DNA of 33,933 nt from Dehalococcoidia bacterium (GTDB taxonomy: Bacteria; Chloroflexota; Dehalococcoidia; Dehalococcoidales; RBG-16-60-22): contig JAUWBK010000001.1 of NCBI GenBank assembly GCA_030605045.1, positions 1 to 33,933 on the forward strand, given 5' to 3'. The notes under the pieces were generated by a model, which searched no databases, had not been told where the DNA came from, and worked only from the letters and a program-made list of their open reading frames with translations. The translations under genes were made by a program, and so were the position numbers. Positions 1 through 9,782 of this stretch are shown here, one piece after another. Numbering within the stretch: the first letter of the stretch is position 1; each line of letters opens with the position of its first letter.

Positions 1-177
1 TTTGCTTACGCCATATTCTTCCTCCGCGGTGCGGCTGACCCAGAGCTGGGGGTGACTACGGTGGACATAATTCGGGGGGTAATTCCATTTGTTATCCTCA
101 TCATGGTTGGCCTTGGCCTATGTGTAGCTTTTCCTCAGCTAATCCTCTGGCTACCCCATCAGATGATTAAGTTTTAA
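1..177 (+). CDS. dctM: TRAP transporter large permease (DctM family), last 58 codons only; the 5' part lies outside the window
   Basis: Frame 1 is open from base 1 to TAA at 175-177. The product FAYAIFFLRGAADPELGVTTVDIIRGVIPFVILIMVGLGLCVAFPQLILWLPHQMIKF aligns position-for-position with the C-terminus of the complete DctM at 31643-32986. Confidence 0.85.
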   Translation, partial: FAYAIFFLRGAADPELGVTTVDIIRGVIPFVILIMVGLGLCVAFPQLILWLPHQMIKF

Positions 178-224
178 TGAAGCAGTTGCCCCGGGTTTAA
201 AAATCTAGTCAAGGAGGTTATTTG

Positions 225-623
225 ATGGAAAGGAAAGAGCCTTATGCCAGCCAGGAAGAATTCAACAAACGGGTTGTCCACTACCCCGATGTTCCCCCTG
301 TAGAACTGTGGCCCGGTGTATCCAGCCACCTTGTTTCTGTTAAAAACATCACCGTCAGCTTTATCACCATGAGTCCAAACGTTACCACTACGGCTCACCG
401 CCATGAAGCGGAACAGGTCATGATAGTTGTAGATGGTGAAATCGACCAAATAGTTGAGGGAAAGATATATCACCTTAAGAAAGGTGATGTTATCACCCTG
501 CCCTCGAACGAAGAACACGCAGCTTATGTTTCTGATAAAGGTTGCCACGTCATCGATGTTTTTTCACCGCCACGAGAGGACCTCGTAGCAAAACTAAAAG
601 AGGTCTTAGAAGGGAAAACCTAG
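225..623 (+). CDS. cupin-domain protein (about 132 aa)
   Basis: AGGAGG at 212-217 is followed by ATG 225 (TTG 222 is an alternative). Cupin metal-binding pattern AHRHEAEQVMIVVDGE ... GDVITLPSNEEHA. Confidence 0.8.
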   Translation: MERKEPYASQEEFNKRVVHYPDVPPVELWPGVSSHLVSVKNITVSFITMSPNVTTTAHRHEAEQVMIVVDGEIDQIVEGKIYHLKKGDVITLPSNEEHAAYVSDKGCHVIDVFSPPREDLVAKLKEVLEGKT

Positions 624-867
624 ACTAGAACAATGTAGTTAGCCTCAGGGATGTCGGGAAAAAGAAACGAAATATGAGCTATCTGGGTTAACTCCTATCA
701 GATGCAACTTGGGAAAAACCCTGTCAAGTGCCAGTCCTTTGAAATGCTATAAAAGTCACTTGTAATGATTCTCGGGTAAAAGATTGAAGTATAAGCGTTA
801 TATGTAGGATGTAATTCATAATTGAGCAGTATGGCTGGTTAGAATTCCAAAGAAAGGAATTATCTAA

Positions 868-1536
868 ATGGTTAATTTTGCCAATGAGAACGAAATGTTT
901 GATATGATGCGGGACAAGTTGAATGCCGCCGTAATTTCGGATATCCTTGATGGTCTTGGCGCTCGCGAACAGGGGATGAGAGCTGATATCCGCCCCATCT
1001 ACCAAGGGGCAATTGTCGTCGGTAGGGCCTACACCGTCATCACTGCCGATATCTTCCAGGTTATTGATGACCCATACGGAGGCGAAATTGAAGCTGTTGA
1101 TTCGCTAAAGCCCAACGACGTAATGGTAGTCTGCACCAACCGTTCCACACACACCTGCTTCTGGGGCGAGTTGCTTTCTACCGCAGCTCGAGCCCGTGGT
1201 GCTCGTGGGATAGTGATCGATGGTTATACCAGGGACGTGGCTCAAATCAGCGCCATGGAATTCCCCACTTTTGCTACCGGGGTTAGTATGGTTGACTCGA
1301 AGGGAAGGAGCATAGTAATCGACCATGGCTGCCCGGCGAATTGTGGCGATGTACTTGTCAACACCGGGGATATTGTTTTCGGTGACATAGATGGGGTGGT
1401 CGTCATTCCCAAAGCACTTGAGAGGGAAGTCATTCCACTGGCTCTGGAAAAGGTAGGGAAGGAAAACTTGCTTCGCGGTGAGTTGCTCAGGGGAGCGCTA
1501 CTGCGGGATGCTTACGATAAGTACAAAATACTTTGA
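868..1536 (+). CDS. RraA family protein (4-hydroxy-4-methyl-2-oxoglutarate aldolase / RraA-like)
   Basis: 222-aa ORF with family-typical stretches [49 protein letters not shown]. Confidence 0.8.
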
Positions 1537-1694
1537 TGCCTTGCCGAAGTAAATTTGTTCAGTGTTACGGCGGGTGGGGCTACTCTCACATCCTAAATTA
1601 CGTCGTTCCGATGATGCTACAAAGAGGTATGACTCGGGAACAGATAGACACAATCATGGTGGAAAATCCGAAAAGGTTACTCTGTTTCGTTTGA
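1536..1694 (+). pseudogene. 52-codon remnant matching only the C-terminus of phosphotriesterase-family (PTE/Php, amidohydrolase superfamily) proteins
   Basis: ATG 1536 overlaps the RraA stop (TGATG). The product is [52 protein letters not shown]. The pattern GG-GY--IL---VP-L---G-----ID-----NP-R matches, from memory, the last ~50 residues of ~300-aa Php/PTE proteins. No upstream PTE sequence is present. Confidence 0.5.
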
Positions 1695-1737
1695 GCTAAT
1701 TTGGACTGCAGGTTCGGTGGCAAGGGCGAGAGGGCAA

Positions 1738-2981
1738 TGAAAAAGTTGGTTTCCATCGTTAGAGTAGATGAATCAGGTATCGAAGCTGCGGTGCGTAAGG
1801 CAATAGACCTAGCCGGTGGCCTTAAGGAAATAATAACCGCCGATTCCAGGGTTCTGGTTAAGCCCAACCTTTGTTGGCCGGGGCCCTCGGGAACGGGCTC
1901 CATCACCGATTATCGTGTTACCGAGGCAGTTACCAAAATAGTACTGGAGCTGGGACCTAAATCGGTAATCATTGGTGAGGGCTCCAGTGCCGGGTGGGAC
2001 TTTGACTCTAGCCACAGCACCGAAGAAGCTTTCCGGGTCTCGGGCACAGCCGATGTTGCCCGCAGGCTTGGTGTGGAACTGCGCAACCTTAACCGTGATA
2101 CATTCGAGGAAGTGACCTTATCTGAACCCTACGTTATGAAAAAGGTCAGAATTGCCCGAACCGCTTTTGAAAGCGACGTTATCATCAGCGTACCGGTACT
2201 TAAGACCCACCTTCGAACCTTGGTTACTCTGAGTCTTAAGAATATGAAAGGGGTTATGCCTGGGGCCGAAAAGAGGAAAACCCATAGACTTGGCCTGGAT
2301 AAAGCAATCGCCGACCTGAACTCAGTGGTGAAACCCAGCTATGTCGTTGTTGATGCCCTGGCCGGGATGCAAGGGTTATGGGAATATCCTCAGGACAGGT
2401 TCGAGCTGGGACTGATAATGGCGGGGGCAGACCCGATTGCGGTGGATACAGCAGGTACCTGCCTGATGGGCTTTGACGCGACTCAGGTCATGCATCTTCA
2501 ATATTTCGCGGCCCGACAGGGAACTAAGGCTGACCTAAGCCAAGTGGCTGTGGTTGGCGAGTCTGTAGAGGCGAATAAACAGAGTTTGCGGTCTGGCTTC
2601 GATGTGTTTAAGGGCAGGTATCCAGGAGTATATATTGTTGAAGGAGAGTCAGTTTGTACTGGTTGTATAGGTGAATTGCTCGGCGCACTTCAGGCCGTTA
2701 AAAAGTTTGGCCATGACCACGTCTTGACCGACCTAACCGTTATTCTTGGTACTCCCAGTCCCAACGAGATTGCAGCCAGGGCTAAGACGGTTGTCCTCGG
2801 CAAATGCGCCAAAAACGTAGCTCGTTTTGGCACCTATGTTAAAGGCTGTCCTCCAATGAGCGACGACATGATTCGGGCCATCTGTGGGGTATCTAGCTTC
2901 GATGGTGATTCTGTCGTCGCGTCACGGAATCAGGATCGCCAGCGAAGATGGCAAGAGACGAGGTTCTTGCTGAAACACTAA
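1738..2981 (+). CDS. DUF362 domain protein (putative Fe-S binding)
   Basis: GAGAGGG precedes ATG 1738 (MKKLVSIVRV). DUF362-like stretches VLVKPNLC, VPVLKTHLRTLVTLSLKNMKGVMP. C-terminal Cys motifs CTGCIGE and GKCAKN...GCPP. Confidence 0.65.
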
Positions 2982-2984
2982 ATC

Positions 2985-4265
2985 TTACCGTCTAACCATA
3001 CCTAGTTCTGCCTTGTCGTACGCGACAACGGCGCTCAACAGGATATTGGCGCCAGCAGCCACATGTTCGGGTTCGGTTTTCTCAATCTCATTGTGGCTGA
3101 TGCCGTTCTCACACGGGATAAAGATCATCGCCGTCGGTGCCACTCGGGCTATATAGACGGCGTCGTGACCGGCACCAGAGACCATGTCACGATGGCGATA
3201 GCCCAAGTCCTCGGCGGCAGCACGGACGACGCTGACGCAGACCTCATCGAACCTCATGGACGGAGAGTTCCAGATGCTTTCCAGCTTTGCCTTGAGACCC
3301 GTGTCTGTCGCGACCCTATCTACCATCACCTTAAGCTCTTTATCCATCTCGTCCAGCACGGCATCGTTCGGATGGCGGAGATCAACGGAGAAGAAGACGG
3401 ACCCTGGGATCACGTTACGCGAGTTCGGCTTAACCTCAACCAAGCCGACTGTCGAGACGGCGAGTGGCGCATGATTTAGGGCGATTTTGTTGATTGCCTC
3501 GACCATTCGGGCGCAGGCCACCATGGCGTCCTTGCGCATATTCATCGGTGTGCTGCCGGCATGACTTTCACGGCCAGTCACGGTGACATCGTACCAGCGC
3601 TGGCCCTGCACACCAGTGACCACGCCGATTGTCTTATTCTCGACCTCCAGAACCGGACCCTGCTCAATGTGAAACTCAAAGTAGGCACCCAGCTTCTGGT
3701 CACCGCATTTGGTCTTACCATGATAGCCGATGCGCTCCAGTTCCTCGCCAAACTTCTTGCCGTCGCGGTCCTCACGGGCATAGGCGAAGTCCCGGTCGAA
3801 CACGCCAGCAAATACGCCCGAGGCGAACATAGGCGGATTGAAGCGGGAGCCTTCCTCGTTAGTCCAGTTGATCACTTCCAGTGGTGCCTTAGTTGTGTAG
3901 CCAGCATCGTTCAGGGTGCACAATACCTCCAGACCCGAGAGCACACCAAGGATGCCATCAAACTTGCCACCCGAGGGCTGGGTATCGAGATGGCTACCCA
4001 TAGCGATCGGTGGCAGTGAGTTGTCCTTGCCCGGCCGCCGGACGAAAATGTTACCCATCTCATCGATGGTGACCGTGCCGTCAATCGACTCGCATGTCTT
4101 GACGAACCAATCGCGTATCTGGCGGTCGCTATCGGTCAACGTTAACCGGCAGATACCGCCCCTGGCAGTACCGCCAATCTTCGCCGTCTCCATGATGTTA
4201 TTCCATAGTCGTTCGGCGTTGACCCGCAGGTTTTGCCGGTTACCCTTTATTTTCTTGGTATTCAT
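2985..4265 (-). CDS. M20-family Zn amidohydrolase (allantoate amidohydrolase / N-carbamoyl-L-amino-acid hydrolase / beta-ureidopropionase type)
   Basis: 426-aa ORF with the hallmark GSHLDTQPSGGKFDGILGVLSGLEV, an N-terminal RLWNNIMETAKIGG...GGICRLTLTDSDRQIRDWF, and GAGHDA near the C-terminus. Confidence 0.85.
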   Translation of the reverse strand: MNTKKIKGNRQNLRVNAERLWNNIMETAKIGGTARGGICRLTLTDSDRQIRDWFVKTCESIDGTVTIDEMGNIFVRRPGKDNSLPPIAMGSHLDTQPSGGKFDGILGVLSGLEVLCTLNDAGYTTKAPLEVINWTNEEGSRFNPPMFASGVFAGVFDRDFAYAREDRDGKKFGEELERIGYHGKTKCGDQKLGAYFEFHIEQGPVLEVENKTIGVVTGVQGQRWYDVTVTGRESHAGSTPMNMRKDAMVACARMVEAINKIALNHAPLAVSTVGLVEVKPNSRNVIPGSVFFSVDLRHPNDAVLDEMDKELKVMVDRVATDTGLKAKLESIWNSPSMRFDEVCVSVVRAAAEDLGYRHRDMVSGAGHDAVYIARVAPTAMIFIPCENGISHNEIEKTEPEHVAAGANILLSAVVAYDKAELGMVRR

Positions 4266-4325
4266 GTTAAAAAAATCCGGTACCGGTACTTGCCTAGATT
4301 ATACTATGCCTGATTCGTAGACATA

Positions 4326-4337
4326 GATTAATTATTC
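4326..4337 (+). repeat. left copy of the 12-bp direct repeat GATTAATTATTC bounding the AT-rich islet
   Basis: Exact 12-mer, also present at 5500-5511. It lies 61-72 nt upstream of the M20 start codon. Confidence 0.45.
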
Positions 4338-4389
4338 CGTGATAATCCATATCTATTCAGGGATACACTCCTTAAACTTATTCAGTCTG

Positions 4390-4878
4390 CTAATCTTCCT
4401 TATCAGGACTTAACTGCTTAGGATTGTGCTCAACCGTATCTATAACACGTCTCATTCTGCGAATAGGACCAATCATACTAAACTCAAGACAGAGTATCAT
4501 CCTCTTAGGGAGACGACTTGGCGGTATTGTAATAAGCCCTTTGGCGTCCACTGTTACAGTTATAGGAGCCGATATAGGCTCTATTACTAAGTTTTCTAAT
4601 AACGGCCCCGTCGGTTCAAGCCCCGCCTCATGAACTCTTAGGGGTGCCTCAGTCAAAGTTTTATGCCAAAACAGCCAATGTTTCTTTTTAAGATGCAATG
4701 CTGCTCTCAAAATAAATTCCCTGCGGTCTGGTCTATGATTGATGAACTCTAGGTCAGCCCACAAATATATGTGAGGGTCAGCACCAACATACACTTGAAT
4801 AATTGGCTTTTCTGATATCATTGAAGGAAGAGTATTAGGTCGTGCTTTACTATATGGTTTCTTAATTTCTATTTCCAT
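4390..4878 (-). CDS. hypothetical protein, 162 aa, family not recognised
   Basis: GGAGAGG precedes ATG 4878 (MEIEIKKPYSK...) by 3 nt (4879-4881). The longer 187-aa version (ATG 4953) would start at or upstream of the predicted TSS. AT-rich relative to its neighbours. Confidence 0.55.
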   Translation of the reverse strand: MEIEIKKPYSKARPNTLPSMISEKPIIQVYVGADPHIYLWADLEFINHRPDRREFILRAALHLKKKHWLFWHKTLTEAPLRVHEAGLEPTGPLLENLVIEPISAPITVTVDAKGLITIPPSRLPKRMILCLEFSMIGPIRRMRRVIDTVEHNPKQLSPDKED

Positions 4879-4959
4879 GTGCCTCTCCATAAGTTTACGC
4901 CAGAAAAACCGAAGCACAGGAAACCCATCCATAAACGCACCGACGATATCCATACCCCT

Positions 4960-5010
4960 ATTCTACTACTTAACATATATCTTGACCATCTCCTTCACCT
5001 GTGTTATAAT
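4960..5010. promoter_or_regulatory. back-to-back promoters sharing one -35 region
   Basis: Plus strand: TTGACC 4982-4987, 17-nt spacer, TGtTATAAT with the -10 at 5005-5010. Minus strand: TGGTCA 4988-4983, 17-nt spacer, TAGAAT 4965-4960. Confidence 0.45.
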
Positions 5011-5043
5011 TCGCATACGACTATCTTGTATGGAGGTTATATT

Positions 5044-5259
5044 ATGGCTTTCCCAGACGATGTTGTAAAAACCTGCTTTGAAATTGTTCATAATAAATGC
5101 GAGCGATGCAGGAAAACATTGGCGTGGAGTGATAGGGGTCCTGCAGGTGTGGGGACATGGCAAGCTCACCATATTGACGGGGACACCGATAATAATACCC
5201 ATTCTAACTGTAAAATTCTTTGCTGGTCTTGTCATAAACCAACCTTCTCAAACTCGTAA
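5044..5259 (+). CDS. small HNH endonuclease (71 aa)
   Basis: GGAGG 5032-5036 then ATG 5044. The product has CERC ... QAHHIDGDTDNNTHSNCKILCWSCH, i.e. a CxxC/CxxC zinc finger plus the H-N-H pattern. Confidence 0.7.
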   Translation: MAFPDDVVKTCFEIVHNKCERCRKTLAWSDRGPAGVGTWQAHHIDGDTDNNTHSNCKILCWSCHKPTFSNS

Positions 5260-5499
5260 ATTCTGGTCAATTCGCACAAGTACTGCCTTGAGTATGAATG
5301 CATAAAAAGCCAATATCTTGCTTGAGCAAACGGGGCTAAGATTAACTTCACCTGCTGTCGGGGTATGTAGGCAGGGTCTGACACACACAAGGTCGCTATC
5401 GCTACCTGTTAGCCATCCAAATGACCACGAATATGGGCATGGGCCACCTCCCCATTTGTAGAAATGGGGAAGCTTCCCTGGGTCAAGTATATAATCCCT

Positions 5500-5511
5500 G
5501 ATTAATTATTC
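5500..5511 (+). repeat. right copy of the 12-bp direct repeat GATTAATTATTC
   Basis: Exact match to 4326-4337. It overlaps the last codon and the stop codon (5506-5508) of the TPP-enzyme gene. Confidence 0.45.
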
Positions 5512-7176
5512 AGCACGTTGGAAATGGGACATATCGAGTCCAGTAACAACATCAATTACGGCCGGTATTCCTTCTCGGTTAACTTTCAAGGCTTCTTCCA
5601 GAGCTGGCTTTATTTCAGAAGGTTTTTCAATCCTTTTCCCGTAGCATTGACACGCCTCTGCCCACTTTACGAAGTCAGGTTGTACTTTGAATGTGCTGGT
5701 GTCCCATCCCACGGCTTTCATCTGATTATGTTTTACCCAGCCAAGGGCGGAGTTGTTCAGTACTATCCATGTGCAGCCTACGTTATACTGCGCGGCCGTG
5801 GGCAACTCCTTCATATACATTTGAAATGCTCCGTCACCGGTGACACAGACCACGTTCTTTTCTGGCCTGGTCAATTTGGCGGCAATTGCTCCGACGACAC
5901 CCATGCCCATACACGTTTGTTCAGCAACTGGCACACATTCCGATCTGTCCTGCACCTTGTAATACGGGAAGCAATATGACCAACAATCCTGAGAACCGTT
6001 CTCACTGACTAAGATTGTGTTCTCGCCAAACACTTTGCTCAACTCATATACGGTACGTTTTGCCGGAATCGGGGTAACTTCAACCACGCATTCCGCCTCC
6101 ACCTCTATTTCAAATTCCTTTTTTGCTTTTATAATCTCCTTTACCCGTGGTATTTCCTTGAAAATACTTTCCTTCTCAACTTTCCCCTTTGCGGCAGCGC
6201 TCAATTGCCTTAAAACGATTTGGGCATCGCCAACAATACCGACATCGGGTATCCAATTTCTCCCTATTTCAAATGAAGAGATGTCGATTTGGATGAATTT
6301 GGCCCCTTTCGGAAAATCCTTCCATTCATGTGTTTGGAAACTCTCGTTCCGAGTTCCAACGGTGATAATAAGATCGGCGTCAGAATAAACCGTCTTGCCA
6401 ACTTTAGTTCTATACAGACCGCATAGCCCAAGAGCCAAGGGGTGCTCTTCAGACAGGATTCCTCTACCACCGGGGGTGGTCATAAATGGTATGCCCAATA
6501 ATTCAATGAATTCTCTAAATTCCTCCGAGGCTCCGGATTGTACTGCCCCATTACCCGCTACCATCACCGGTCGCTTAGCCTTTAAAATTAGCGCTACGGC
6601 TTCATTGATTAGTTTTGGGTCGCCGGCGGTACGAACTTTTTTGGCTGGCACATATTCCGGTAAACTAACCTCGGCAAATGCATACTTGGAGGTACCGCTG
6701 ACATCATAGGGTATCTCCAGGAAAACTGGTCCTGGCTGACCGTTCATCGCTACCGAAAATGCCCTACGGATGAACCAAGGAATCCTTTCTGCGTAAGGAA
6801 TGCGAGCACTCCATTTGGTTATGGGTTTCATCATCGCCGTCTGGTCAGATTCCTGGAAATCTGCCATGCCTTCCGTTTTTTGAGATATAGCGGTACATAT
6901 TATTACCAGTGGTGAGCAACCAGAGTATGCCTCCAATACACTGGGAACCAAGTTGGCTACCCCGGGCCCGGTGCTGGCAGTGCAAACACCTGGCTTTCCA
7001 CTCAGTCTGGAGTAAGCCATTGCCATGAATGGTGCTGACCCCTCATATCTAAGATTTATTGATGTTATTCCGGGAGTTTTTTCGGCGAATAACTGCAGGC
7101 CGGTATCCCCTAGCCCAAAGACAAACTCAACTCCCTCAGACTTAACCATGTTGACAATTGCTTCCCACAAGTTCAT
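5506..7176 (-). CDS. thiamine-diphosphate-dependent enzyme, acetolactate synthase-like family (specific reaction not assignable)
   Basis: GGAGG 7191-7187 then ATG 7176 (MNLWEAIVNMVKSEGVEFVFG). N-terminal Pyr domain with catalytic-Glu context LRYEGSAPFMAMAYSR, GPGVANL, and C-terminal TPP-binding GDGAFQM...LNN. Confidence 0.85.
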   Translation of the reverse strand: MNLWEAIVNMVKSEGVEFVFGLGDTGLQLFAEKTPGITSINLRYEGSAPFMAMAYSRLSGKPGVCTASTGPGVANLVPSVLEAYSGCSPLVIICTAISQKTEGMADFQESDQTAMMKPITKWSARIPYAERIPWFIRRAFSVAMNGQPGPVFLEIPYDVSGTSKYAFAEVSLPEYVPAKKVRTAGDPKLINEAVALILKAKRPVMVAGNGAVQSGASEEFREFIELLGIPFMTTPGGRGILSEEHPLALGLCGLYRTKVGKTVYSDADLIITVGTRNESFQTHEWKDFPKGAKFIQIDISSFEIGRNWIPDVGIVGDAQIVLRQLSAAAKGKVEKESIFKEIPRVKEIIKAKKEFEIEVEAECVVEVTPIPAKRTVYELSKVFGENTILVSENGSQDCWSYCFPYYKVQDRSECVPVAEQTCMGMGVVGAIAAKLTRPEKNVVCVTGDGAFQMYMKELPTAAQYNVGCTWIVLNNSALGWVKHNQMKAVGWDTSTFKVQPDFVKWAEACQCYGKRIEKPSEIKPALEEALKVNREGIPAVIDVVTGLDMSHFQRAE

Positions 7177-7261
7177 TATTGCATCACCTCCTTTGACTAA
7201 TATTCTACTAGCCTTCTCGTCTATTTGGAAGTACCTCATATAAAAATGGGTGGATTATTGG

Positions 7262-7291
7262 TTGACAGACTATTTTAGGAAGTATTAGAAT
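7262..7291 (+). promoter_or_regulatory. sigma70-like promoter upstream of hisF
   Basis: TTGACA 7262-7267, 18-nt spacer, TAGAAT 7286-7291. This leaves a leader of about 140 nt. Confidence 0.4.
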
Positions 7292-7434
7292 ACGGAAAGC
7301 GGTTACCGCTATCCGTTCATTATAAATTATAGTCATAAGCTTTGGAGACGAGGAAGCGGACATTGACGCCGAAAATCCCGCCGTCAGCACTGTTATGGAA
7401 AACCAAAATCTAATCAGGTTTGAGGAGTGGTGAG

Positions 7435-8205
7435 ATGAAAGAGGTGAGAATCATACCCTGTCTTGATGTGAAAGATGGGAGGGTAGTCAAGGGGGTAAAT
7501 TTTGTCGACCTGAGGGATGCCCGTGACCCGGTAGAAGCGGCGGGGGCCTACTGCCGGGAAGGGGCTGATGAACTTGTCTTTCTCGACATTTTCGCTACGG
7601 TGCAGAATAGAAAAACGAGATTGGAGTGGGTGAAAAAGGTCTGTGATGTCGTCACCGTGCCTTTTGCCGTCGGTGGTGGCATAGGCAGCACTGAGGATAT
7701 GAGGGCATTAATTGACCTCGGTGTGGACAAGGTCTCGATAAATACGGCTGCGGTCAGGAATCCCGAACTCATAAGACAAGCCACGAAGGAATTTGGCAAG
7801 GAGAGGCTTGTGGTTGCCATTGATGGCCAGAAGAACCCGCTGGATAGCGGCCTCCCTCGACTAGAGGTAGTGGTTAAGAGTGGTAGCGAGCCCACGGGGA
7901 TGGGAATTGTGGAATGGGCGAAGCGGGTCGAGGAACTGGGTGCGGGGGAGATTTTGCTCACCAGCAAGGATGCCGATGGCACCAAAGAAGGCTACGACTT
8001 GGAAATGACGAAAGCGGTGGCTGAGGCAGTAACCATCCCGGTTATCGCTTCCGGAGGTGCCGGCAAATTAGAGCATCTTTATGAAGCGGTAACCATTGGC
8101 AAAGCGGCGGCAGTTTTGGCGGCTTCAGTCTTCCACTTTGGGGAGATATCAATACCTGAAGCCAAAAAATACCTTCAAGAAAGGGGAATACCCGTAAAAA
8201 CATAA
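7435..8205 (+). CDS. hisF: imidazole glycerol phosphate synthase cyclase subunit HisF (or a close paralogue)
   Basis: GAGGAG 7422-7427 then ATG 7435. [75 protein letters not shown]. Confidence 0.85.
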
Positions 8206-8216
8206 GGAGGTACAAG

Positions 8217-9782
8217 ATGTCCTTAAGCAAACCGAATGCCAGTGCGGCAACGAGAACCAGAAATAGAGTATCAGCTGCACCTATCTCAGGGATGTGTGTT
8301 GCTTGCCTCGATAGCTGTCTTGGCCTATGTGAAGTAGGGCAATCTGCTTTAAGGGGTAGAGAGGCAATGTATCCACAGCCCTTTGGTAAGGTCAGTGTTG
8401 GAGCCGAAAAGGATTACCCGGTAGACTATTCTCATTTCAACATTCATGGTAGCTGTGTTGGGGCTTATGGTGTAGACGCCGACTCTGATAAAGCTACTTT
8501 CCAAGCCGTTGATGCTACGACAAAGGTTGGGCTCAAAGGTAAGGAAATAAAATTGAGGGTTCCTTTCTTCACCGGTGCCCTGGGTTCAACCGAGATAGCC
8601 CGGGTTTATTGGGAAGGAGCTGCCATAGGAGCTGCCATCTGCGGGACCATTATAATCTGCGGAGAGAATGTCTGTGGCATGGACCCTGATGCTGAAATAA
8701 AGAATGGGCGGGTCATCAAGTCTCCTGAATTAGACAGAAGGGTGAGAACCTTCCAGGATTGGTATGATGGCTACGGACTGTTGTTAGTCCAGGCAAATGT
8801 AGAGGATAGTCGCCTCGGTGTACTCGAATATGCGATAGAGAAACTTGGTGTTCAAGGAGTTGAGATAAAGTGGGGGCAAGGGGCAAAGGATATCGGTGGC
8901 GAGGTAAAGCTTCCGTCCCTAGAGAGAGCACGTCAGCTAAAGAGCAGAGGTTATCCTGTATTTCCTGACCCTGACGACCCGGTAGTTCAGGAAAGCTTTC
9001 ACATAGGAGAAATTGAAGAATTTGAGCGTCACTCACGACTGGGCATGGTAGACGAGGAATCATTCCATAGGGAGGTGGAAAGACTTCGAAGTGCAGGCGC
9101 CAAGTACGTTACCTTGAAGACAGGGGCCTATAGACCAGCCGACCTGGCTCGGGCCGTTAAGTTTTCTTCTGACACTAAAATAGACCTGCTCACCGTGGAT
9201 GGTGCCGGTGGAGGCACCGGAATGAGTCCGTGGCGGATGATGAATGAGTGGGGAATACCTACCGTGTATCTGGAGTGTCTCCTGTATGATTATCTTTCTC
9301 GGCTGGAAAAGAAAGGAGCTTATATTCCCAGTTGTGCCATTGCCGGCGGTATTGCTCTGGAGGATCAGGTATTCAAGGCTATTGCTTTAGGTGCTCCGTT
9401 TATAAAAGCAGTATGTCTCGGTCGCTCCACCCTCACTGCGGTTACCGTAGCTAAAGCCAACGCGGAAAAGCTTCGTAAGGAACATGAGAATGCAGAGCCC
9501 TACGAGAGAGCTTTGATGCAAACTTTTGTCAATGTGGCTCAGCTCAAGGCAAAATACGGAAAGGACTTTGCCCGAATTCCTCCAGCAGCGATTGGTATGT
9601 ATAACTACTATGAGCGATTAACCACCGGTCTGCAGCAACTTATGGCCGGAGCCAGGAAATTCCGCTTAGACCTAGTTAAGCGGGACGATCTTACGGCTCT
9701 CACCAGGGAGGCAGCGGAGATTTCTGGTATCCCTTACGTGATGGACGCTGACAAAGAGGAAGTGGACAAGATTTTAGCCTGA
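8217..9782 (+). CDS. glutamate synthase-related FMN-domain protein (stand-alone GltB domain-2 type)
   Basis: AAGGAGG sits 7 nt upstream of ATG 8217. N-terminal Cys cluster CVACLDSCLGLCEV. FMN-domain signature TVDGAGGGTGMSPW. 11-nt gap after hisF. Confidence 0.8.
   Translation: MSLSKPNASAATRTRNRVSAAPISGMCVACLDSCLGLCEVGQSALRGREAMYPQPFGKVSVGAEKDYPVDYSHFNIHGSCVGAYGVDADSDKATFQAVDATTKVGLKGKEIKLRVPFFTGALGSTEIARVYWEGAAIGAAICGTIIICGENVCGMDPDAEIKNGRVIKSPELDRRVRTFQDWYDGYGLLLVQANVEDSRLGVLEYAIEKLGVQGVEIKWGQGAKDIGGEVKLPSLERARQLKSRGYPVFPDPDDPVVQESFHIGEIEEFERHSRLGMVDEESFHREVERLRSAGAKYVTLKTGAYRPADLARAVKFSSDTKIDLLTVDGAGGGTGMSPWRMMNEWGIPTVYLECLLYDYLSRLEKKGAYIPSCAIAGGIALEDQVFKAIALGAPFIKAVCLGRSTLTAVTVAKANAEKLRKEHENAEPYERALMQTFVNVAQLKAKYGKDFARIPPAAIGMYNYYERLTTGLQQLMAGARKFRLDLVKRDDLTALTREAAEISGIPYVMDADKEEVDKILA

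What the first reader, a model, noticed from the sequence alone, without database searches (positions are those of the whole stretch)
4326..5511. AT-rich 1.17-kb islet bounded by an exact 12-bp direct repeat, apparently inserted into a TPP-enzyme/M20-hydrolase operon
GATTAATTATTC occurs at 4326-4337 and 5500-5511. The right copy contains the last codon and stop codon of the TPP-enzyme gene, and the left copy would supply the same GAA-TAA on the minus strand. Removing one repeat plus the 1162 bp between them would leave the TPP gene's stop 66 nt upstream of the M20 amidohydrolase start on the same strand, a normal operon junction. The intervening DNA is visibly more AT-rich than both flanks. 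It carries its own consensus-like divergent promoters and encodes only an unrecognised 162-aa protein and a 71-aa HNH nuclease. This looks like a target-site-duplication or att-like footprint of a tiny mobile or homing-type cassette that lacks any recognisable transposase or integrase.
Basis: partly seen in the sequence, partly recalled or inferred. Interest (0 to 1): 0.6.

Follow-up and report, generated by a model that had tools for sequence, protein, structure and literature searches.

The report
Transposase-less relic of an IS1595 element
The 1.17-kb AT-rich islet is a real, recent insertion between two metabolic genes of a marine-sediment Dehalococcoidales bacterium, but it is the broken-off right half of an ordinary IS1595-family insertion sequence carrying three small passenger genes, not a new kind of mobile cassette.

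Summary
GATTAATTATTC occurs only at 4326-4337 and 5500-5511, and about 0.1% of shuffles give such a boundary pair.

The insertion reading also holds. A fully syntenic contig that is 97-98% identical (L315), a second contig (L316), a sister-species genome (L001) and contigs from five other sediment runs all join TPP directly to M20. Each has one copy of the 12-mer. The filled form is seen in three runs.

The islet is not transposase-free in origin:
- Its right end (5482-5499) is the terminal inverted repeat of a widespread IS1595-family group.
- Its left end (4338-4418) is the last 27 codons of that family's DDE transposase.
- Between them lie orf187 (a predicted beta-sandwich protein of unknown function), a 71-aa HNH protein, and a third conserved ORF of about 83 codons with no start codon.

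Relatives repeat this layout: transposase stub, variable passenger gene, HNH facing ORF83, inverted repeat.

Forty-six complete relatives typically give 8-bp target duplications and never 12. The left junction is therefore aberrant. It falls on the only 9-mer in the islet that mimics an inverted-repeat tip.

Verdict: an ordinary insertion-sequence relic with a few loose ends.

The parts
4326..4337 (.). Left copy of the 12-bp direct repeat GATTAATTATTC (duplicated target)
   Evidence: The empty sites L315, L316 and L001, and the joints in X2, X5, X21 and X22, carry one copy.
4338..4421 (+). Stub of an IS1595-family DDE transposase gene. It keeps the last 27 codons (RDNPYLFRDTLLKLIQSANLPYQDLTA) plus the TAG stop. 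Its first 9 nt, CGTGATAAT, mimic an inverted-repeat tip.
   Evidence: BLASTP gives 18/26 identical residues to positions 275-300 of the full-length L102 transposase, E 1e-12; tblastn E 8e-8. The L102 ORF hits PF12762 (2.6e-39) and PF12760. The same 50-70 nt recur at 74-95% identity in 8 other Chloroflexota loci, most of them labelled Dehalococcoidales, and at word depths of 216-600 against about 37 in the metagenome runs. The tip mimicry is unique within the islet.
4390..4953 (-). orf187, the passenger gene. It has no family assignment and may alternatively start at M26, giving 162 aa. The predicted structure is N-terminal helices followed by a beta-sandwich. It converges on the transposase stub and overlaps it by 32 nt.
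   Evidence: ORF. No Pfam, NCBIfam, PHROG or PADLOC hit. There are 18 homologues at 47-90% identity in varied contexts. The AlphaFold2 model has pLDDT 81, and the only fold matches are weak, generic beta-sandwich hits with TM-score 0.37 or less.
4960..5010 (.). Divergent promoter region. TTGACC-17-TATAAT on the + strand (4982-5010) would drive HNH. TGGTCA-17-TAGAAT on the - strand (4988-4960) would drive orf187.
   Evidence: The region is conserved with the orf187 module in L080, L081 and L083 and with the HNH modules.
5044..5259 (+). 71-aa HNH nuclease-core protein
   Evidence: PF01844 at 22.4 bits, HNH PHROGs and the HNH part of ZorE. Cys4, His-His, Asn and His columns are invariant in 11 homologues.
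5249..5499 (-). ORF83, a conserved ORF of about 83 codons that reads inward from the inverted repeat. It converges on HNH, and the two ORFs' 3' ends overlap by 11 nt. This copy has no ATG, GTG or TTG start.
   Evidence: The frame is free of stops in 7 of 9 homologous modules, whereas the other five frames carry 1-10 stops. Translation. There are 97 representative protein clusters, several with a real Met start. The convergent HNH/ORF83 pair also occurs beside distant HNH homologues. Alignment. The AlphaFold2 model has pLDDT 84 with no PDB fold or sequence match. Rfam finds nothing here.
5449..5470 (.). Conserved hairpin CCCCAT-N8-ATGGGG inside ORF83, with no T-run after it
   Evidence: Inverted match. 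One stem pair changes T-A to C-G in L103 and L108. No terminator-like site was scored.
5482..5499 (-). Terminal inverted repeat of the IS (minus strand AGGGATTATATACTTGAC), directly abutting the right 12-mer
   Evidence: It differs by one mismatch from the IRs of the full-length L102 element. The same motif bounds 46 complete elements across many phyla.
5500..5511 (.). Right copy of the 12-bp direct repeat. It contains the TPP gene's last codon and stop.

Best explanation
The islet is the right-hand 1162 bp of an IS1595-family (ISXO2-like DDE transposase) insertion sequence of about 2.2 kb, a length I infer from the layout below.

**Inferred full layout.** Left IR, transposase reading rightward, a convergent variable passenger gene (here orf187), a divergent promoter, the HNH gene, the convergent ORF83, right IR.

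**What the window keeps.** The right IR, ORF83, HNH, orf187 and only the last 27 codons of the transposase. The islet cannot move by itself.

**When it arrived (shown).** It entered the 66-nt TPP-M20 spacer recently. Strains 97-99% identical in the flanks, and the sister species, have the uninterrupted spacer with one GATTAATTATTC.

**The two junctions (shown).**
- The right junction is a normal transposase product: the IR tip abuts the target.
- The left junction is not normal. There is no left IR, and the duplication is 12 bp where the family makes 8 bp.

**How the left junction formed (inferred, about 40% of this explanation).** In a single aberrant event, a transposase supplied in trans paired the true right IR with an IR-tip look-alike (CGTGATAAT against CGTGATTAT). 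That look-alike lies inside the 3' end of the transposase gene. Alternatively the event was one-ended and the host resolved the other junction.

**Likely consequences (inferred).**
- M20 is now probably transcribed by read-through from the orf187 promoter.
- HNH transcription runs antisense into the 3' end of TPP.
For: **Insertion polymorphism**
- L001 has TPP 92% and M20 88% identical at protein level, with TPP and M20 adjacent.
- L315 is 13.4 kb with the same eight-gene order. Window 1-4337 aligns at 97.1% and window 5500-9438 at 98.0%, and the two alignments overlap by exactly the 12-mer. L316 shows the same junction.
- Contigs joining 4325 to 5500, with 12 nt fitting both sides, occur in X2, X5, X21 and X22. 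One is a 707-nt contig spanning both flanks. X5 and X7 contigs run from 4337 straight into AGCACGTTGG, the sequence at 5512 onward.
- The filled form appears as mismatch-free pieces in X1 (both junctions), in X4 (a contig across the right junction) and in X21 (two internal pieces).

**IS identity**
- The transposase stub is homologous to family transposases.
- The IR is one mismatch from the IRs of a full-length element.
- The motif bounds 46 complete elements of 0.7-4.1 kb, and 56 of 120 loci hold a near-full transposase.

**Recurrent modular layout in relics elsewhere**.

**Non-canonical left end**
- The target duplication is typically 8 bp in those complete relatives and never 12.
- Position 4338 is the only one of about 1,135 positions in the islet with 8 of 9 or better identity to a genuine IR tip, in the correct orientation.

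**A transposase source is plausible.** 3' ends of this transposase family are many-fold more abundant than the islet in the same sediment runs.
Against: - No case of a 12-bp duplication, or of use of this cryptic tip, was found in any other locus. The proposed left-junction mechanism rests on one event.
- No full-length element carrying orf187 or the HNH/ORF83 pair was found. All the HNH-bearing and orf187-bearing loci examined have truncated transposases, and none of the 120 loci found by the inverted-repeat motif carries these genes. The 2.2-kb parent is therefore inferred.
- In X1 the link between the left-junction contig (4146-4367) and the body contig (4360-5581) runs through the multicopy stub. 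Continuity there rests on the window's own assembly and on matching depths.
Confidence: 0.75

Rival explanations
1. Two steps. A full-length IS inserted canonically with an 8-bp duplication, and a later in-situ deletion removed the left IR and most of the transposase gene.
For: Transposase truncation at varied points is the rule in related relics, so decay in place is common.
Against: An 8-bp duplication (GATTAATT) followed by a deletion cannot give the observed 12-bp repeat. The four extra bases, ATTC, are target sequence. The natural transposase sequence upstream of CGTGAT is TAAC or TAAT in other copies. The deletion would also have had to stop exactly at the target boundary.
Confidence: 0.08
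2. The polarity is reversed. The filled state is older, and the 'empty' strains lost the islet by slippage or recombination between the two 12-mers.
For: A 12-bp direct repeat can mediate precise deletion. Both forms coexist in some samples (X4, X21).
Against: The outgroup L001 is empty. Empty forms dominate in seven or more samples or contigs. This reading still needs the same aberrant insertion to create the repeat, plus a loss. The islet pieces recovered from three studies (P1, P2, P3) show no mismatches, while the flanks differ by 2-3%.
Confidence: 0.08
3. A homing-type cassette. The HNH nuclease cuts the empty TPP-M20 spacer, and the islet is copied in by repair from a filled allele.
For: There is a presence/absence polymorphism at one precise site. 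An HNH gene with a strong promoter lies inside the insert. The weak PADLOC hits include one homing-endonuclease model (E 0.0064).
Against: The protein is a bare 71-aa nuclease core with no DNA-binding domain. Its homologues sit at unrelated sites, always beside an IS end and a transposase stub. Homing does not create target duplications. The insert ends exactly at an IS inverted repeat.
Confidence: 0.05
4. att-like integration. A circular form carrying one GATTAATTATTC recombined with the chromosomal 12-mer through a host site-specific recombinase.
For: Identical repeats at both ends are what Campbell-type integration leaves.
Against: No recombinase gene lies in the islet and none was identified among the flanking ORFs examined. 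No other copy of the 12-mer-plus-islet junction was seen in any run. No recurrent repeat appears at other copies. One end is a transposase-type IR tip.
Confidence: 0.03
5. Assembly chimera. The islet was wrongly threaded into the locus through repeated sequence.
For: The stub at 4338-4389 is multicopy in the metagenomes, and the X1 contigs break there.
Against: Independent contigs cross both junctions in X1. The right junction is also crossed in X4. Depths of the flanks and the islet match (43, 37 and 51). A 12-bp repeat is too short to mislead a k-mer assembler.
Confidence: 0.01

Closest known systems
IS1595 family insertion sequences (ISXO2-like DDE transposase, Pfam PF12762 and PF12760), including members that carry passenger genes
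   Same: The terminal inverted repeat is essentially identical to that of full-length members. The transposase C-terminus is homologous. Passenger genes sit between the transposase and one IR. The -35-like TTGAC lies inside the IR. Flanking targets are AT-rich.
   Different: Only 27 codons of the transposase remain. There is one IR instead of two. The duplication is 12 bp instead of 8 bp. The passenger set (orf187, mini-HNH, ORF83) was not seen in any of 120 loci sampled by the IR motif.
Mobile insertion cassettes and MITE-like non-autonomous IS derivatives (IR-bounded, transposase-less, moved in trans). The MIC comparison is from my own knowledge of MIC231/IS231.
   Same: It is transposase-less, carries coding cargo, derives from an IS, and has recently arrived at a new site. 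L098:5967-6702 is a textbook example from the same IS group, with two IRs and an 8-bp duplication.
   Different: The window's copy lacks the second IR and the parental duplication length. If it was mobilised in trans, it used a surrogate end.
One-ended or aberrant transposition products (known for Tn3-family and some other elements; from my own knowledge)
   Same: One junction is precise at an IR. The other end lies inside the element at a non-IR position.
   Different: This behaviour is not documented for IS1595, as far as my searches and my own knowledge go. No cointegrate or donor backbone is attached.
Free-standing HNH homing endonuclease genes
   Same: A small HNH ORF lies in an intergenic, strain-variable insert.
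   Different: The protein is only the nuclease core. The module is tied to IS ends at many unrelated sites. A target duplication is present.

Membership tests
IS1595 family (as an intact IS) | Encodes a DDE transposase with the ISXO2-like catalytic domain (PF12762), usually with an N-terminal zinc ribbon (PF12760) | tested here: not met
   Only the last 27 codons are present. They are homologous to residues 275-300 of a full-length transposase. No other transposase hit occurs in the 34-kb window.
IS1595 family (as an intact IS) | Terminal inverted repeats at both ends | tested here: not met
   The right IR at 5482-5499 is one mismatch from family IRs. No second IR lies in the window within 4 mismatches. 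The left end is only an 8-of-9 look-alike of the IR tip.
IS1595 family (as an intact IS) | 8-bp target-site duplication | tested here: not met
   The complete relatives with two IRs typically show 8 bp, and none of 46 shows 12. The window has an exact 12-bp duplication.
IS1595 family (by descent: a relic or derivative) | Sequence homology of the end and of the transposase remnant to bona fide members | tested here: met
Non-autonomous IS derivative (MIC or MITE type) | No transposase, two parental IRs, parental duplication length | tested here: not met
   The absence of a transposase is met. The two IRs and the 8-bp duplication are not met. L098 shows what a true member from this group looks like.
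HNH endonuclease superfamily (PF01844) | beta-beta-alpha-metal core with the His...Asn...His motif, here with a Cys4 zinc site | tested here: met
   Pfam scores 22.4 bits against a cut-off of 21.4. C19, C22, H42, H43, N55, C63 and H64 are invariant, and C60 nearly invariant (at least 90%), in 11 sequences. Catalytic activity was not tested.
Free-standing homing endonuclease gene | Nuclease specifically cleaves the insert-free allele of its own site | not testable with these tools
   This needs a cleavage assay. Context argues against it, because homologues lie at unrelated sites next to IS ends.
Integron gene cassette (considered because of the multicopy 50-nt piece after the ORF) | attC recombination site downstream of a promoterless ORF | tested here: not met
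   The multicopy piece is transposase coding sequence on the opposite strand, and the ORFs have their own promoters.
Structured RNA at the IS end (guide-RNA-like; considered for 5260-5499) | Conserved non-coding sequence with covarying structure and no conserved reading frame | tested here: not met
   There is no Rfam match. The stretch carries a stop-free, conserved protein frame. Only one short hairpin shows a compensatory change.

The most novel reading that the evidence does not exclude
The unit made of transposase stub, variable passenger, mini-HNH, ORF83 and a single IR may not be mere debris. It could be a functional non-autonomous element that still moves without its own transposase. 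Movement would use one true IR plus a surrogate tip conserved in the stub, possibly helped by the HNH/ORF83 pair, and would leave a 12-bp duplication. This would explain two things: why every HNH-bearing or orf187-bearing copy found lacks an intact transposase yet keeps the stub, and why at least one insertion is very recent.
Probability: 0.1. Interest if true: 0.65.

Novelty: new member of a known kind. Interest (0 to 1): 0.3.

Why it matters
**For annotation.** A 'mystery cassette' in an uncultured Dehalococcoidales genome turns out to be a relic of a prolific IS1595-group element. The work also supplies the end sequence of that group (SGKGATTATATACTTGAY), its 8-bp duplication, and its habit of carrying small cargo genes.

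**For the host.**
- The insertion splits a TPP-enzyme and carbamoylase-type amidohydrolase gene pair that is adjacent in close relatives.
- It probably rewires M20 expression to the orf187 promoter.
- It marks a strain-level polymorphism in marine-sediment populations.

**What remains curious.**
- The insertion was recent although the element has no transposase and only one IR.
- The duplication is 12 bp.
- The convergent mini-HNH/ORF83 pair is conserved and has no known family or fold.

These points merit a note, not a campaign.

Tried and rejected
- **Whole-genome search.** I could not look for other copies or for an intact transposase in the genome.
- **Rfam.** A search of 4100-5700 at E up to 5 found nothing.
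- **orf187 relatives.** A scan of representative genomes for orf187 relatives found none. Exact look-ups of the HNH, M20 and TPP proteins were not on record.
- **Integron attC or REP-like reading.** I first read the multicopy piece at 4338-4389 this way. I dropped the idea when the piece translated, on the other strand, to a transposase C-terminus.
- **Degenerate inner IR at about 4995-5012.** I dropped this too. The region is the sigma-70-type HNH promoter, and it is conserved in loci without HNH.
- **Guide-RNA-like reading of 5260-5499.** This was replaced by a conserved ORF. Codon-position periodicity could not tell the two strands apart, because their wobble positions coincide. Stop-codon counts and gene calls in relatives favour the minus strand.
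- **The 29 nt at 4297-4325 as an IR scar.** These 29 nt are absent from L001. Only a 7-mer match supports the scar idea, and the 29 nt are present in the empty sites L315 and L316, so they are chromosomal.
- **Microhomology at the left junction.** The natural transposase sequence upstream of the breakpoint resembles the 12-mer only modestly: 0.2-7.5% of positions score as well, depending on the copy used.
- **Recurrent flanking repeats.** A search at seven other HNH-type loci found none that was meaningful. L092 and L093 gave no parallel case.
- **Fold searches.** Those for orf187 and ORF83, and the defence and phage libraries for both, were uninformative.
- **RNA.** The one RNA run from the source sample had no contigs on the locus.
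Full report
**1. Observation**

The window holds GATTAATTATTC at 4326-4337 and 5500-5511 and nowhere else, even with one mismatch allowed.

The flanking genes, both on the minus strand, are:
- a 577-aa thiamine-diphosphate enzyme of the acetolactate-synthase type (5506-7239);
- a 426-aa M20 amidase that passes NCBIfam's allantoate-amidohydrolase/carbamoylase subfamily models (2985-4265).

The right repeat contains the TPP gene's GAA-TAA. Deleting one repeat and the 1162 bp between them leaves a 66-nt spacer.

An exact match of 12 nt or more between the two 100-nt boundary zones arose in 0.13% of 200,000 first-order (Markov) resamples. Chance 12-mers between the islet and the whole window are common, however. 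The repeat alone would therefore not carry the argument.

The islet is 42.7% GC, against 46.9% for TPP and 56.3% for M20. That puts it in the lowest 5.6% of equal-sized windows.

**2. It is an insertion**

Of 79 loci encoding relatives of the TPP enzyme, only the closest has M20 downstream, and there it follows directly. That locus is L001, a Dehalococcoidales MAG with TPP 92% and M20 88% identical. Its junction reads ...GCCGAATAATTAATCcAGGCAAGTACC...ATG.

A JGI metagenome contig (L315, 13.4 kb) has the window's full gene order:
- GltS-like, HisF, TPP, M20, DUF362, RraA-like, cupin, DctM.
- TPP and M20 are 67 nt apart.
- Window 1-4337 aligns to it at 97.1% and window 5500-9438 at 98.0%.
- The two alignments overlap by exactly the 12-mer.

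L316, from another sample, has the same junction.

Logan contigs from other marine-sediment runs agree:
- X2, X5, X21 and X22 join 4325 to 5500 with 12 nt fitting both sides. X22 has a 707-nt contig spanning both flanks.
- X5 and X7 contigs run from 4337 into AGCACGTTGG.
- X5 and X7 also carry a spacer variant.

The filled form appears as mismatch-free pieces in X1 (probably the source sample; both junctions are crossed), in X4 (a contig across the right junction) and in X21 (two internal pieces).

With the outgroup empty and the near-identical strains empty, gain in the window's lineage is the parsimonious polarity.

**3. What was inserted**

*The transposase stub.* orf187 has 18 homologues (47-90% identity, no family) that sit in unrelated neighbourhoods. 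DNA homology to the window runs only from about 4330 to about 4990.

Read depth showed that 4338-4389 is many-fold multicopy in the sediments. The same 50-70 nt occur in eight other Chloroflexota loci, most of them labelled Dehalococcoidales, that lack orf187. Read on the plus strand, this piece encodes ...RDNPYLFRDTLLKLIQSANLPYQDLTA*. In L102 the homologous stretch is the C-terminus of a 310-330-aa ORF with the ISXO2-like DDE domain and the IS1595 zinc ribbon. BLASTP of the stub against that protein gives 18/26 identities, E 1e-12.

*The inverted repeat.* The L102 element has 23-nt terminal inverted repeats. Their core, GGGGATTATATACTTGAC, recurs with one mismatch at window 5499-5482 (minus strand), directly against the right 12-mer.

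A scan of representative genomes with SGKGATTATATACTTGAY returned at least 120 loci from many phyla, and 56 of them hold a near-full transposase. Forty-six elements with two inverted copies (0.7-4.1 kb) show flanking duplications that are typically 8 bp and never 12.

The islet is therefore the IR-proximal part of an IS1595-family element, with the transposase reduced to a stub.

**4. The rest of the cargo**

*HNH.* The 71-aa HNH protein has close homologues (57-72% identity, 67-68 aa) and belongs to a wider set of roughly 78-aa proteins.

The whole HNH module is conserved at 65-83% DNA identity in at least eight distinct loci. The module comprises the promoter, HNH, 240 nt downstream and an IR. 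In these loci it always ends at an IS1595-type IR, of either the window's type or a second type, GGTAACTATCCCCTCAAAGCA.

*ORF83.* The 240 nt are not non-coding:
- The minus strand is stop-free in 7 of 9 homologues and encodes a conserved peptide...LPHFYKWGGG..WSFGWLTG.DNDLVCV...LSPVCS...LK..L.R.D.NL.
- phmmer finds 97 representative clusters of 65-130-aa proteins, several starting MK.PKFY.
- The convergent HNH/ORF83 pair also accompanies HNH homologues only 38-44% identical.
- The window's copy has no canonical start codon. It runs open to the IR and happens to be in frame with TPP across its TAA.

*Function.* Neither ORF83 nor orf187 matches any family, defence model or solved fold. The AlphaFold2 models have pLDDT 84 and 81. 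orf187 is predicted as N-terminal helices plus a beta-sandwich, with only weak, generic beta-sandwich matches.

*Layout across loci.* The order is constant: transposase stub, then a convergent passenger gene that differs from locus to locus, then the divergent promoter, HNH, ORF83 and the IR. No locus with an intact transposase next to HNH or orf187 was found.

**5. How the junctions were made**

The right junction, with the IR tip against the target, is what a transposase makes. The left junction is not:
- There is no IR within four mismatches.
- The breakpoint lies inside the transposase gene.
- The duplication is 12 bp.

A canonical 8-bp insertion followed by an in-situ deletion cannot reproduce the sequence. 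The four extra bases, ATTC, are target sequence, whereas the natural gene reads TAAC or TAAT there.

Two features of the breakpoint stand out:
- CGTGATAAT at 4338 is the only 9-mer in the islet with 8 of 9 or better identity to a bona fide IR tip (CGTGATTAT, as in L098, L269 and L296), and it is in the right orientation.
- The natural transposase sequence just upstream of that point resembles the 12-mer modestly (GATTTAATAAT or GATTCAATAAC).

I therefore favour a single aberrant event. A transposase acting in trans paired the true IR with this surrogate tip, or made a one-ended joint that the host completed. This step is inference from one case. No second 12-bp case or stub-ended element with flanking repeats was found.

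**6. Comparison and verdict**

By descent the islet belongs to the IS1595 family. As an element it fails all three defining tests: intact transposase, two IRs and an 8-bp duplication. It is a relic or non-autonomous derivative, close in kind to mobile insertion cassettes. L098 offers a proper two-IR, 8-bp example from the same group.

The homing and att readings have no positive support. The finding is well explained and mostly ordinary.

The residual puzzles are:
- the recent arrival of a transposase-less, one-IR fragment;
- the 12-bp duplication;
- the conserved mini-HNH/ORF83 pair of unknown role.

**Limits**
- Read evidence comes from assembled contigs rather than raw reads.
- No expression data cover the locus.

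Noticed in passing
window 5249-5514 (minus strand): ORF83 has no start codon and is in frame with the TPP gene across its single TAA stop (…QRAE*LIRDYILDPGKLPHFY…). Stop read-through would fuse the two. This is probably a one-in-three coincidence.
   Followed up: partly
window 4297-4325 vs L001:1981-1992: The TPP-M20 spacer carries 29 nt (TATGTCTACGAATCAGGCATAGTATAATC, minus strand) that are absent from the sister species L001 and bounded by TAATC on both sides. They are present in the empty sites L315 and L316. X5 and X7 carry a third allele in which 9 nt are replaced by TTAATACCTA. The spacer is a small hotspot of indels.
   Followed up: partly
window 2985-4265: The M20 amidase gene is 56% GC, against 47-49% for its neighbours and the window. 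TPP-M20 adjacency exists only in the closest relatives (1 of 79 TPP loci). M20 may itself be a fairly recent arrival at this locus.
   Followed up: no
L080:372-2330: Two IS-derived cassettes lie in tandem, in the same orientation. Each has an IR, a passenger gene (194 aa; then 133 aa plus an orf187 homologue) and a transposase stub. It looks like an array of relics.
   Followed up: partly
L119:2762-2814: Two copies of the type-A inverted repeat lie in tandem, 32 nt apart, at the end of an HNH module. This suggests repeated hits at one site.
   Followed up: no
L195-L314 (genome-contig hits): The 18-nt IR motif SGKGATTATATACTTGAY bounds elements of 0.7-4.1 kb in Acidobacteriota, Verrucomicrobiota, Alphaproteobacteria, Latescibacterota, Dehalococcoidia and others. 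Elements much longer than a transposase gene imply frequent, varied passenger genes in this IS group.
   Followed up: partly
L102:2559-3185, L088:487-1086, L080:471-1055, L093:4242-4880: The passenger genes that converge on the transposase in different copies are unrelated in sequence. All are about 180-210 aa, have no family, and most have a hydrophobic N-terminal segment, which suggests small membrane-anchored proteins.
   Followed up: no
L115:1024-1053: An independent copy with the window's IR type is flanked by GAATTATTATTG, which matches the window's 12-mer GATTAATTATTC at 9 of 12 positions. Other flanks are also rich in ATTA and TAAT. This suggests a target preference for such AT-rich sites.
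   Followed up: partly
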